From NCBI RefSeq assembly GCF_009914755.1, contig NC_060926.1: a stretch of DNA of 64,000 bases. One strand, given 5' to 3'. Under the pieces are notes generated by a model, which saw only the letters and a program-made list of their open reading frames with translations, had not been told where the DNA came from and did no database searches. The stretch comes from the human T2T-CHM13v2.0 reference genome, Homo sapiens. The first letter of the stretch is position 1. Each line of letters starts with the position of its first letter. Both the position numbers and the translations under genes were made by a program. This document shows, piece by piece, positions 57,541 to 61,719 of the stretch.

Positions 57541-58114
57541 GGGTGACATGGGCACTGATCCAGGAAAATTATACAATGAAAAAAACATGCACAAGAAAAC
57601 AAATGTTCAAGACTAACATCAGCCGCCTGTTGCCATGCCAATACAAACATCCCACGTTTGAGTAAGTTACAATCATGAGTAACTGTATCTGCTTTAATTG
57701 ATATTTTAAAAGTTAAAAGTGTTGCTCTGCTGGTTATAGATTTTTAGAAATATTTGCTTCATGCCAGGATGCAACAAGTTTCATCTTATTCCCAAAAGGA
57801 AGCTTGGCTATGACTAGGAAAAGGAGCATAAATTTAATGACAAGGACTTCAGATAAACTGCAGCCTTTGTTTTCCACTGCTGAAACACAGACACTGTCGC
57901 ATTTTGTCTCCAAAGCCATGTTTCTTTCCCACAACAATTCTCAATGAAGAAATCTTCCTGCCTGAAAGTTGTTATAGTCTTATTTTTGTCCCCACAGAAA
58001 AATATTAATCTAAGAGTTTCAATCCGTGCTAAGTCAAAATTTTTCCATCTCTACCAACATCAGCCTTATATTTTATTTAAAGTAAGTCTGAATTTCCGTT
58101 TTTTTTTTTTTTTT

Positions 58115-58394
58115 GGTCAGAAAGCAATATTTAATAGAGACTTACACAGAAAATATCCTTTTTATAGTAGGTTCTTTTGACAAAACATGTAGAGTTGGTC
58201 ACATCTCAGACTTTCTTGTGAAACTTGTGACCACTGAGGAGGTTAGATAAGCATCTTTATGAGTGTTTATCTATGCTGCAGTTTAAAGATCTTGCTGCAG
58301 AACACCTTGGTATGGAGGAGTCAAACATTGATCATCATGGTGGTTTTGCTTCAAGACGGCACCACTCTGCCATTCAACAGACTGCTCTCCTACA
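58115..58394 (-). mobile_element. LTR fragment (LTR47-like, tentative) truncated at its poly(A) site
   Basis: Starts TGTAGG on minus; TATAAAAA near 58159-58166, then ATTAAA 15 nt before the poly(A) tail. Confidence 0.55.
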
Positions 58395-59069
58395 AAGAGA
58401 CGACCCTTTCCTCATTGTGTATTCTTGGCACCCTTGTTGAAAGTTAGTTGATCATCTATGCCTGAGTTCATTTCTGGGCTCTGTATTCTGTTTGTTTGGC
58501 CAATTTGTCTGTTTTTATTCCAGTACTATAATGTTTTAATTATTATAACTTTGTAATATAATTTGAAATCAGGAAGTGTAATGCCTCATATTTTGTTCTC
58601 CTTTCTTAAGATTGCTTTGGCTGTTTGGAGTCATTTGTGGTTCCATGCAAATTTTATAGGATTGCTTTAATTCTGTTTCTGTGAAGAATGCTACTGGAAT
58701 TGTAACAAGAATTGCATTGAATGTAAAGATCACTTTGGGTTGTGTAGATAGTTAAACAATATTAAGTCTTCTAATCCATGAGCACAAGATAATGCTCCAT
58801 CCATTTGTTTCTTCAGTCTTTTCCCATCAATGTTTTATAGTTTTTAGCATTCAGTTATTGCATCTCCTTGGTTAATTTATTCCTAATTATTTTATTCTTT
58901 TTGATGCTATCATAACAGATTGTTTTCTTGATTCCCTTTTTGGATAATTTGCTGTTGGTTTAAAGAAATGCTACTGACTTTTGTATGTTGATTTTGTATC
59001 CTGCAACTTTACTAAATTTATTAGTTCTAATAGTTTTTAATGGAATCTTTAGGATTTTCTATATATAGG
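58395..59069 (-). mobile_element. Old L1M ORF2 fragment (transduced)
   Basis: Reverse complement reads tatatagaaaatcctaaagattcc...aaagttgcaggatacaaaatcaacatacaaaagtcagtagc. Confidence 0.85.
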
Positions 59070-59094
59070 AATGAACAGAGGCAGGCAGCAAAAG

Positions 59095-60384
59095 CAAAAA
59101 CAAGCAATGGGGAAAGGATTCCCTATTTAATAAATGGTGCTGGGAAAACTGGCTAGCCATATGTAGAAAGCTGAAACTGGATCCCTTCCTTACACCTTAT
59201 ACAAAAATTAATTCAAGATGGATTAAAGACTTAAACGTTAGACCTAAAACCATAAAAACCCTAGAAGAAAACCTAGGCATTACCATTCAGGACATAGGCA
59301 TGGGCAAGGACTTCATGTCTAAAACACCAAAAGCAATGGCAACAAAAGCCAAAATTGACAAATGGGATCTAATTAAACTAAAGAGCTTCTGCATAGCAAA
59401 ACAAACTACCATCAGAGTGAACAGGCAACCTACAGAATGGGAGAAAATTTTCGCGACCTACTCTTCTGACAAAGGGCTAATATCCAGAATCTACAATGAA
59501 CTCAAACAAATTTACAAGAAAAAAACAAACAACCCCATCAAAAAGTGGGCAAAGGAAATGAACAGACACTTCTCAAAAGAAGACATTTATGTAGCCAAAA
59601 AACACATGAAAAAATGTTCATCATCACTGGCCATCAGAGAAATGCAAATCAAAACCACAATGAGATACCATCTCCCACCAGTTAGAATGGCAATCATTAA
59701 AAAGTCAGGAAACAACAGGTGCTGGAGAGGATGTGGAGAAATAGGAACACTTTTACACTGTTGGTGGGACTGTAAACTAGTTCAACCCTTGTGGAAGTCA
59801 GTGTGGCCATTCCTCAGGGATCTAGAACTAGAAATACCATTTGACCCAGCCATCCCATTACTGGGTATATACCCAAAGGACTATAAATCATGCTGCTATA
59901 AAGACACATACACACGTATGTTTATTGCGGCACTATTCACAATAGCAAAGTCTTGGAACCAACCCAAATGTCCAACAATGATAGACTGGATTAAGAAAAT
60001 GTGGCACATATACACCATGGAATACTATGCAGCCATAAAAAATGATGAGTTCATGTCCTTTATAGGGACATGGATGAAATTGGAAATCATCATTCTCAGT
60101 AAACTATCGCAAGAACAAAAAACCAAACACCGCATATTCTCACTCATAGGTGGGAATTTAACAATGAGAACACATGGACACAGGAAGGGGAACATCACAC
60201 TCTGGGGACTGTTGTGGGGTCGGGGGAGGGGGGGAGGGATAGCTTTAGGAGATATACCTAATGCTAAATGACGAGTTAATGGGTGCAGCACACCAGCATG
60301 GCACATGTATACATATGTAACTAACCTGCACATTGTGCACATGTACCCTAAAACTTAAAGTATAATAATAATAAAATAAAAAAG
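59095..60384 (+). mobile_element. L1PA3-like 3' 1.3 kb (ORF2 C-terminus and 3'UTR)
   Basis: ORF 59300..60271 is ORF2 [12 protein letters not shown]...SLIGGN; 3'UTR gctaaatgacgagttaatggg and caccagcatgg. Confidence 0.95.
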
Positions 60385-60619
60385 AAAAATGTCTATTCAA
60401 GTCCTTTGCCCATTTCAGCAAGCTTGTTTGTTTTTTGTTTGTTTTACTGAGCTGTATGAGTTCCTTACATGTTTTAGATGCTAACCCCTTATCAGATAAA
60501 TAGTTTGCAAATATTTATCTCCCAACCTATAGGGTGCCTTTTCATCTTGTTGATTATTTCCTTGGCTGTACAGAGCTTTTACTTTAATGTAGTCCTACTT
60601 GTTTATTTATTTTTGCTTT
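60385..60619 (-). mobile_element. Old L1M ORF2 fragment (transduced, in the inverted segment)
   Basis: aaatgtctattcaagtcctttgcccattt...cccttatcagata...tttgcaaatattt. Confidence 0.85.
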
Positions 60620-61719
60620 TGAATTTCCGTTTTTATTGTCCGTAATTCTTAGCAAAGACTTAACATAGATCTATGTGAGTATGACACTTTAGAAATCGAG
60701 AATTGCTTTTTAAAAAATAAAGACAGGGCTTTGGGAAGGGAAGGGCACACTCACGGATCATGTCCTGGACCCCCGGAAGGCAGAAAGTGTTGTCTCAAAA
60801 GGGAAAATCAGATGTTTCTTAAACACATAGGTCTGGTCGGTTAGACAAAATTGCCATTCTCAAATGCAGTGAACACTCTGCTTCCTTGTAATTTCCTGTT
60901 TGCATCCAAGTATCTGCTTCAACTAAAGTCAGCATATCAAGTAACCGCTGACGCTGACCAAGCCCTGCGAGCACACACAGCCCACCCTCCACCCGGAGAA
61001 CCGCCACCGCCCCGTCACAGCCATCCCAAGTCCCTCCTGCTCCCTCCTCCTGAGCCTTGGACCAGCGGCTGCCCCTCCTTCAGACAAAGTTCTTTGGCCT
61101 CATATTTCAGTTTATCGCACTTAAATGTGCAGGATTCCATGCAAGCCGTAACGTAATAAGTAGCATCCATTGCAAGAGCAGCTACTGTGCTTGGCTGTGC
61201 GCTAGGAGGTTTGCACGCACAGCCTTCCTCACTCCTCAGGACCCCTACAGATGGGGAAGCCGAGGCTTCAAGGGGTGCGGTCACGTCCTCAAGGGAGCAC
61301 ATCCGGAAAGCACAGACCAGGACCCCAGCTCAAGGCTGGCACATGCCCTGCACCTGCTGCCAGCTCCACCACGCAGGTGCATTTTTCCTCAGCCCTCAGT
61401 TAGGCAGCCTTCCCATCCCCCTCAAGAACAGTCTCCACCGTGTCACACCACAGGTCAGTGGAGTCCAACCCCCTGCCCACCAGACCCCCTGTGAGTCAAT
61501 CGCCGAGAGCCAGCTGAGTTCATCTCCATCCCCAGCACCTGCCAGCAGGGCCTCCACGTGGCGTGTTCTTTCTGACTTCCTAATAGTATAATTAAATATA
61601 ACAACTTTAGAGTTGATCTAGTCTGAAAGGCAAGATATTTTCTCCCCTAAATAAGATTGGTTAAGGACTGCTAAACTGTTCACTGTCTTGTGCTATTCTG
61701 CACAAGACTGTCCTGTTCC

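What the first reader, a model, noticed from the sequence alone, without database searches (positions are those of the whole stretch)
58089..60634. Twin-primed L1PA3 insertion carrying about 1.2 kb of 3'-transduced DNA; the source RNA can be reconstructed
Seen: four apparently unrelated repeat pieces are enclosed by one 15-bp direct repeat (tgaatttccgttttt, 58089 and 60620). On the minus strand the site reads aT/AAAAA, close to the L1 endonuclease consensus. A poly(A) tail follows ATTAAA by 15 nt inside an LTR fragment. The L1PA3 points the opposite way to that tail and has no TSD of its own. The 12-mer ending the inverted segment (tttttgcttttg, 60610-60621) recurs reverse-complemented at the inner junction (caaaagcaaaaa, 59089-59100). 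There it continues on minus as ...ctgcctg, the expected L1M antisense continuation, and shares CAAAAA microhomology with the L1. Established: twin priming gives TSD-rc(B)rc(A)-C-D-polyA-TSD, and L1 read-through gives 3' transduction. Inference: the RNA was L1PA3, its A-tail, antisense L1M, sense L1M, LTR poly(A) site. Unusually, the inversion point lies in the transduced flank rather than in the L1. The transduced tag should identify the parent L1. A repeat-masker would probably split this into four separate entries.
Basis: partly seen in the sequence, partly recalled or inferred. Interest (0 to 1): 0.8.

Follow-up and report, generated by a model that had tools for sequence, protein, structure and literature searches.

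The report
Inverted L1 insertion carrying chr4 DNA
A 2.5-kb block in a PXDN intron is one old L1 retrotransposition event that carried along 1.2 kb of chromosome 4 DNA and had its 5' part flipped during insertion; it is a clear example of known mechanisms, not a new one.

Summary
An exact 15-bp direct repeat (58089-58103 and 60620-60634; 0 expected by chance) encloses four repeat pieces. A 16-nt poly(A) on the minus strand follows ATTAAA by 15 nt.

The two non-L1PA arms are contiguous at one other locus, C4:141924613-141925821. They differ from it by 38 substitutions in 1205 aligned bases (3.15%). There the LTR-like repeat continues past the poly(A) site and no A-run is present.

The two arms overlap by 5-12 nt in inverted orientation. 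AAAAA microhomology lies at the inner joint, as twin priming predicts.

One prediction failed. The chr4 locus has no young L1 at the boundary, nor within 10 kb upstream or 6 kb downstream. The boundary is a rare endonuclease-like site (11 of 19,936 positions). The progenitor L1 was therefore probably unfixed and lost (about 0.8). A template-switch or ligation chimera remains possible (about 0.1).

Inversion breakpoints inside transduced sequence are already in print (PMC13009371). This is a well-resolved instance of known mechanisms and of modest interest.

The parts
58089..58103 (.). Left copy of the 15-bp target-site duplication. Its T5 end merges into the poly(T).
58104..58114 (-). Untemplated poly(A) tail of the event, read as T on +. 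With the T5 of the duplication it is 16 nt. The chr4 source has no A-run at this point.
58115..58394 (-). First ~285 nt of an LTR-like repeat, ending at its own ATTAAA poly(A) site. Copied from L002 2196-2480.
58395..59088 (-). Old L1 (L1M-like) ORF2 segment, sense on the minus strand. Copied from L002 1501-2195. It forms the forward arm together with the LTR piece.
59089..59100 (-). Inner junction. Bases 59089-59095 (7 nt) continue the chr4 copy past the internal priming point, giving an inverted duplication. Bases 59096-59100 (AAAAA) are microhomology shared with the young L1.
59096..60366 (+). 5'-truncated young L1PA piece: ORF2p residues 921-1275 plus the 3' UTR. It is part of the inverted arm.
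60367..60383 (+). Short degenerate internal A-rich tail of the young L1.
60384..60621 (+). Old L1 ORF2 segment, antisense relative to the young L1. Copied from L002 1270-1499. Its last 2 nt (TG) overlap the target-site duplication.
60620..60634 (.). Right copy of the 15-bp target-site duplication.

Best explanation
This was a single L1 target-primed reverse transcription event on the minus strand at AT/AAAAA. The template was a read-through transcript of a young L1PA element that once sat in chromosome 4 at the site TCTTT|AGAAAAATG (L002 about 1270). That transcript ran 1.2 kb into the flank and was polyadenylated at the native ATTAAA signal of a solo LTR. The flank is an ancient, itself inverted, old L1 carrying that solo LTR. 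The first cDNA was primed on the poly(A) tail and copied the LTR piece and the sense old-L1 piece (58115-59095). The second DNA end primed inside the RNA with 2 nt of overlap (TG). It copied the antisense old-L1 piece, the L1's A-tail and 1.27 kb of the L1. The two cDNAs were joined at an AAAAA microhomology, leaving a 5-12 nt inverted duplication. Shown here: the enclosure by target-site duplications, the untemplated tail, the contiguity of both arms on chr4, the overlap and the microhomology. Inferred: that the young L1 was physically upstream at chr4 and was later lost from the population before fixation.
For: Target-site duplication and EN-like site. In one search, 40 of 11,936 first-look candidates were scored. 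Besides the self match, exactly 1 locus (C4) matched at 96% over query 2-973. The other 38 matched at 72-76% and only within query 18-696, the generic old-L1 part. In one search, 40 of 3,109 candidates were scored. C4:141924613-141924840 matched at 92% and abuts the first match; the other 38 matched at 75-83%. Base-level alignments map the left arm to L002 1488/1493-2480 and the right arm to L002 1270-1497/1499. At the poly(A) site chr4 reads CTGAC|AAACTAGATG where the window has A16, so the copy went through RNA. The LTR continues 88 nt past that site on chr4. ATTAAA sits at the same column in 3 of 6 other copies of the repeat, with one-base variants in the other 3. The chr4 boundary meets a strict EN-like pattern found at only 11 of 19,936 positions of 20 kb of chr4; a looser pattern fits 58 of 19,936. 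Divergence is 38 of 1205 (3.15%), and the young L1 piece is 97-98% identical to its 39 best relatives, so the ages agree. Internal duplications and microcomplementarity are described features of twin priming (bioRxiv 10.1101/2024.08.27.596794, passages).
Against: The chr4 locus in this assembly has no young L1 at the boundary. The old antisense L1 simply continues upstream. One search found 0 hits to the young L1 piece in 10 kb upstream, and only one 89-nt, 76% old fragment in 6 kb downstream. No third copy of the transduced tag exists among the scored hits, so there are no sibling insertions and no relay copy. The EN-like patterns were defined after seeing the site. An A-run at the boundary would also favour a template jump onto a poly(A) tail. 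The empty PXDN site in other primates was not examined.
Confidence: 0.8

Rival explanations
1. Chimeric retrocopy. An independent chr4 transcript ending at the LTR poly(A) site was retrotransposed in trans with twin priming. The internally primed cDNA jumped from about L002 1270 onto the poly(A) tail of a separate L1 RNA, or the two RNAs were ligated beforehand. On this view no L1 ever sat at chr4.
For: No young L1 lies at or near the chr4 locus. The boundary begins with AAAAA, which could pair a nascent cDNA to a poly(A) tail. Same-orientation L1 chimeras made by RNA ligation or template switching are documented (PMC13174262, passages).
Against: It requires trans-mobilisation of a non-genic transcript plus a template jump, and both are rare compared with L1 read-through. 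In one long-read survey 466 of 5,311 polymorphic L1 insertions (8.8%) carried transductions (PMC12350158, passages). The boundary also has the TT preceding the A-run, as at an endonuclease nick, which a template jump does not predict. Described chimeras mostly carry the partner RNA at the 5' side of the L1, not 3' of its tail.
Confidence: 0.1
2. Two events. A twin-primed retrocopy of the chr4 transcript inserted first. Later an independent young L1 landed exactly at its inversion junction.
For: AAAAG lies on both sides of the young L1 (59090-59094 and 60380-60384) and could be read as a 5-bp target-site duplication.
Against: The L1 would have to hit the one junction nucleotide of a 1.2-kb retrocopy. 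The 5-mer is A-rich and abuts an A-tail, so it is weak evidence. The site preceding it (GC/AAAAG) is not EN-like. The AAAAA that continues the chr4 sequence at 59096-59100 would then be a coincidence.
Confidence: 0.03
3. A collinear transduction-bearing L1 inserted normally, and its 5' 1.5 kb was inverted afterwards at the DNA level.
For: The young L1 body and the antisense old-L1 piece form an imperfect inverted repeat (72.6% over 252 columns), which could promote rearrangement.
Against: A later inversion does not create the 5-12 nt that is present on both arms in inverted orientation. It would also not place one breakpoint exactly at the target-site duplication boundary.
Confidence: 0.03

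Closest known systems
Twin priming (5' inversion) of L1 insertions; Ostertag and Kazazian 2001 (recalled; paper not held)
   Same: One target-site duplication pair encloses the block. The forward arm ends in poly(A). The inverted arm is copied from the RNA segment immediately upstream. There is a small internal duplication, microhomology at the inner joint, and minimal overlap at the internal priming point.
   Different: The inversion point lies in the transduced flank, 1.0 kb from the poly(A) tail. The whole L1 part is therefore inverted and the forward arm contains no young L1 at all. This configuration is already reported for somatic and germline transductions (PMC13009371).
L1 3' transduction (partnered type); Moran 1999, Goodier 2000, Pickeral 2000, Szak 2003 (all recalled; not held)
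   Same: The L1 3' end with an internal A-tail is followed by 1.2 kb of foreign DNA. That DNA ends at a downstream poly(A) signal with a new tail, and it maps to a unique donor locus.
   Different: The donor locus lacks the progenitor L1 in this assembly. The transduced DNA is entirely repeat-derived (old L1 plus LTR), so it looks like ordinary repeat clutter.
L1 chimeric insertions by template switching or RNA ligation (PMC13174262)
   Same: L1 sequence and a second RNA are joined in the same orientation within one target-site-duplication-flanked insertion.
   Different: Here the partner lies 3' of the L1 tail and carries the terminal poly(A). The junction on the donor is an endonuclease-like site.

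Membership tests
L1-mediated TPRT insertion | Target-site duplication flanking the whole insert | tested here: met
   Exact 15-mer, 2 copies, 0.00 expected.
L1-mediated TPRT insertion | Endonuclease-like target (TT/AAAA) at the start of the sense-strand duplication | tested here: met
   AT/AAAAA on the minus strand; one mismatch to the recalled consensus.
L1-mediated TPRT insertion | Untemplated poly(A) tail next to the 3' duplication | tested here: met
   A16 in the window where chr4 reads AAACTAGATG.
Twin priming | The inverted 5' arm and the forward 3' arm derive from adjacent parts of one RNA | tested here: met
   The arms map to L002 1270-1499 and 1488-2480, contiguous on chr4.
Twin priming | Small duplication or deletion and microhomology at the inversion junction | tested here: met
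   5-12 nt inverted duplication and AAAAA shared with L1PA relatives.
L1 3' transduction | Non-L1 DNA between the L1 tail and the terminal poly(A), ending at a downstream poly(A) signal | tested here: met
   ATTAAA lies 15 nt before the tail. The signal is conserved in the LTR family: exact in 3 of 6 other copies, one-base variants in 3.
L1 3' transduction | Donor locus where the tag is contiguous and continues past the poly(A) site | tested here: met
   C4:141924613-141925821; the LTR runs on to L002 2568.
L1 3' transduction | Progenitor L1 directly upstream of the tag at the donor locus | tested here: not met
   No young L1 at L002 1270 nor within 10 kb upstream or 6 kb downstream in this assembly. 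The boundary is EN-like, which is compatible with an unfixed, lost progenitor.
L1PA3 subfamily | Subfamily-diagnostic positions | not testable with these tools
   No repeat library is held. The only evidence is 97-98% identity to the 39 best relatives and 3.15% tag divergence, which fit a young L1PA of roughly that age.
LTR (solo) for the poly(A)-donating repeat | TG...CA termini, a short target-site duplication, dispersed copies, and paired copies flanking retroviral genes | tested here: inconclusive
   TGTAGG...GAACA, flanked by CTCTT on both sides inside the old L1. The first look gave 330 candidates. Two direct copies lie 6.6 kb apart on C5. Between them, 1 of 8 open stretches gave RNase_H at E 7.3e-4 and 20.2 bits, below the 25.8 cut-off. 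The family is not named.

The most novel reading that the evidence does not exclude
The internal priming point may not be random. In the predicted read-through RNA, the young L1 body (59328-59568) and the antisense old-L1 piece (60390-60621) form a long imperfect stem. The second primer started at the last two paired bases of that stem, which is also within 5 nt of the ancient inversion junction of the chr4 old L1. If antisense L1 or Alu copies in a source element's flank fix where twin priming starts, this would explain the source-specific breakpoint clusters in transduced sequence reported in PMC13009371. It would also give the poorly understood twin-priming step a testable RNA-structure rule.
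Probability: 0.12. Interest if true: 0.55.

Novelty: new member of a known kind. Interest (0 to 1): 0.3.

Why it matters
The locus shows that four seemingly unrelated repeat fragments in a gene intron can be the record of one event. A repeat-only transduced tag can still be traced to a unique donor locus, here chr4. The tag also dates the event without relying on subfamily consensus: 3.15% divergence between copy and donor. The case documents an ancient source L1 that left a fixed daughter but is itself missing from the genome. Mechanistically nothing new is needed. Twin priming, 3' transduction and inversion points inside transduced sequence are all in print. The only forward-looking element is the possible link between an RNA stem and the internal priming site, and it rests on a single case.

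Tried and rejected
- The classical papers were not held (Szak 2003, Pickeral 2000, Ostertag and Kazazian 2001). They are cited from recall only.
- I looked for a young L1 near the chr4 donor and found none in 10 kb upstream or 6 kb downstream.
- I looked for a third copy of the tag and found none above 83% among the 40 scored hits of each search. Only the best candidates are scored, so this is a lower bound.
- Placing the old-L1 forward arm on ORF2p by protein search gave only a weak match: residues 818-842, E 0.011 (0.0047 to a fusion construct).
- I tried to prove the LTR label through a provirus-like pair on C5. Only one sub-threshold RNase H hit came from 8 open stretches.
- Chance repeats were rejected as an explanation.
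- DNA-level templated repair from chr4 was rejected because the tail is untemplated and follows a poly(A) signal.
- The intron number of PXDN could not be verified from the table supplied.
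Full report
**1. Observation**

The sequence is as described. TGAATTTCCGTTTTT is exact at 58089-58103 and 60620-60634. These are the only two matches in 64 kb even with one mismatch allowed, and shuffles gave none.

The left copy runs into T16 (58099-58114). On the minus strand this is a poly(A) tail, preceded by ATTAAA plus 15 nt. The empty site on the minus strand reads AT/AAAAA.

Between the repeats lie four pieces, listed here in + coordinates:
- An LTR-like fragment (58115-58394).
- An old L1 ORF2 segment (58395-59088). This and the LTR fragment are sense on the minus strand.
- A young L1PA piece on the + strand (59096-60366). Its translation matches human ORF2p residues 921-1275 at E about 1e-236. 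A short A-rich tail follows it.
- A second old-L1 segment (60384-60621), antisense to the young L1. It aligns to window 59338-59586 in reverse at 72.6%.

The 12-mer CAAAAGCAAAAA occurs only at 59089-59100 (+) and 60610-60621 (-); 0.02 were expected.

**2. The decisive test: a second locus**

The window's own assembly could be searched. The reverse complement of 58115-59088 gave 40 scored matches out of 11,936 first-look candidates. Apart from itself, one locus (C4:141924842-141925821) matched at 96% over bases 2-973. The other 38 matched at 72-76% and only over the old-L1 part, within bases 18-696.

The other arm, 60385-60621, matched C4:141924613-141924840 at 92%. The other 38 hits were at 75-83%.

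Base-level alignment gives three mappings:
- The right arm, 60384-60621, equals L002 1270-1499.
- The left arm, read on the minus strand, equals L002 1488 (or 1493)-2480.
- At the poly(A) site chr4 reads CTGAC|AAACTAGATG with no A-run, whereas the window has A16.

The copy therefore went through a polyadenylated RNA. Substitutions number 38 in 1205 aligned bases (3.15%), of which 5 are CpG transitions, with 7 gap events.

**3. Twin priming**

The left arm continues 7 unambiguous bases (59089-59095) past the point where the right arm ends. The next five bases, AAAAA (59096-59100), are shared between the chr4 sequence and the young L1. Four longer L1PA relatives read GAGAAAAACAAGC at that position.

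The right arm's last two bases (TG) are shared with the target-site duplication. The result is an inverted duplication of 5-12 nt plus microhomology at the inner joint. Twin priming is described as giving exactly this picture (bioRxiv 10.1101/2024.08.27.596794, passages). A later DNA inversion would not create the duplication.

**4. The donor locus**

The odd antisense-then-sense old L1 in the tag has a simple cause: the chr4 old L1 is itself an ancient 5'-inverted insertion. Window L1 positions 59338-60192 align to L002 1504->674 (antisense), and 59123-59356 align to L002 2569-2803 (sense). The two arms meet at the same L1 coordinate with about 18 nt of overlap.

Inside the sense arm sits a 373-bp repeat (L002 2196-2568). 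It starts TGTAGG, ends GAACA, and is flanked by CTCTT on both sides. It is dispersed: 330 first-look candidates, with scored copies at 68-83% identity.

ATTAAA lies at the same alignment column in 3 of 6 other copies, with one-base variants in the other 3. Two direct copies 6.6 kb apart on C5 flank a weak RNase H remnant: 1 of 8 open stretches hit, at E 7.3e-4, below Pfam's cut-off. The piece is therefore LTR-like, and the read-through RNA used the LTR's own poly(A) signal. I cannot name the family.

**5. What is missing**

In this assembly the old antisense L1 simply continues upstream of L002 1270. The young L1 piece finds nothing in the 10 kb upstream and only an 89-nt, 76% fragment in the 6 kb downstream. 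No third copy of the tag appeared among the scored hits.

The homology boundary on chr4 is TCTTT|AGAAAAATG. A strict endonuclease-like pattern (TT, then A, with at least 6 A in 7) fits 11 of 19,936 positions of the 20 kb of chr4 examined. A looser pattern fits 58 of 19,936. Both patterns were chosen after seeing the site.

I read this as the empty allele of a progenitor that never reached fixation. Source elements absent from a reference are routine in population surveys (PMC12350158, passages). The alternative is a jump or ligation between an independent chr4 transcript and an L1 RNA tail. That fits the absence of the L1 and the A-run at the boundary. It does not predict the preceding TT, and it needs two rarer steps (PMC13174262, passages).

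My odds are:
- read-through from a lost progenitor, 0.8;
- template-switch or ligation chimera, 0.1;
- nested later L1 insertion, 0.03;
- later DNA inversion, 0.03.

**6. Age and subfamily**

The 3.15% tag divergence is near the human-orangutan level, a figure I recall rather than computed. It fits a young L1PA. The L1 piece is 97-98% identical to its 39 best relatives, out of 40 scored from 7,325 candidates. The specific label L1PA3 could not be tested because no repeat library is held.

**7. Comparison with what is known**

Twin priming and 3' transduction are textbook mechanisms. Long-read surveys report transductions in 466 of 5,311 L1 insertions and 1,047 probable twin-priming inversions (PMC12350158).

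PMC13009371 (passages) reports 5' inversions in 30% of partnered and 16% of orphan transductions. It also reports breakpoint clusters inside transduced sequence for some sources.

I found no mention of this particular locus. My searches were not aimed at it, so I make no claim about whether it is in print.

**8. A side observation**

In the predicted RNA, the young L1 body and the antisense old-L1 piece are complementary. The duplex energy is -150.4 kcal/mol, against -79.4 +/- 6.4 for 100 shuffles.

In a global fold of the 2,500-nt RNA, 161 of the 238 bases of that piece pair, all of them with 59328-59568. The internal priming point falls on the last two paired bases. This is one case, examined post hoc, on a truncated RNA without proteins. 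I rate a causal link at about 0.12.

**9. Verdict**

This is an ordinary mechanism, well resolved at this locus.

Noticed in passing
L002 674-2803 (C4:141924015-141926144): The old L1 at the chr4 donor locus is itself a 5'-inverted (twin-primed) insertion. Its antisense arm is 1504->674 and its sense arm is 1501-2803, and the two meet at the same L1 coordinate with about 18 nt of overlap. The sense arm was later split by a 373-bp solo LTR-like repeat (2196-2568) flanked by CTCTT.
   Followed up: partly
window 59328-59568 with 60390-60621: The young L1 body and the antisense old-L1 piece form a long imperfect inverted repeat. The predicted RNA duplex is -150 kcal/mol against -79 +/- 6 for shuffles. 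The internal priming point of the inversion sits at the end of this stem.
   Followed up: partly
window 58115-59088, minus strand: The forward arm, with its ATTAAA signal and A16, lies in the same orientation as PXDN transcription. The intron therefore carries a sense-oriented poly(A) signal, while the young L1 piece is antisense to the gene. No expression data were examined.
   Followed up: no
window 60158-60160: The ORF2 stop codon of the young L1 piece appears to be lost. ORF2p homology ends at residue 361 of the 398-aa open frame 59075-60271.
   Followed up: no
window 59597-59758 (residues 175-228 of the frame 59075-60271): This ORF2p segment also matched residues 287-340 of PDB chain 9d2f_J, named cilia- and flagella-associated protein 61, at E 4.8e-11. 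This suggests an L1-derived stretch in that deposited sequence.
   Followed up: no
L002 2419-2425 versus window about 58171; window 60424-60445 versus L002 about 1315-1325: Small indels separate the copy from the donor. A 7-nt CCTACTG tandem unit is present only on chr4. A longer TTTG/TTTTG run is present only in the window.
   Followed up: no
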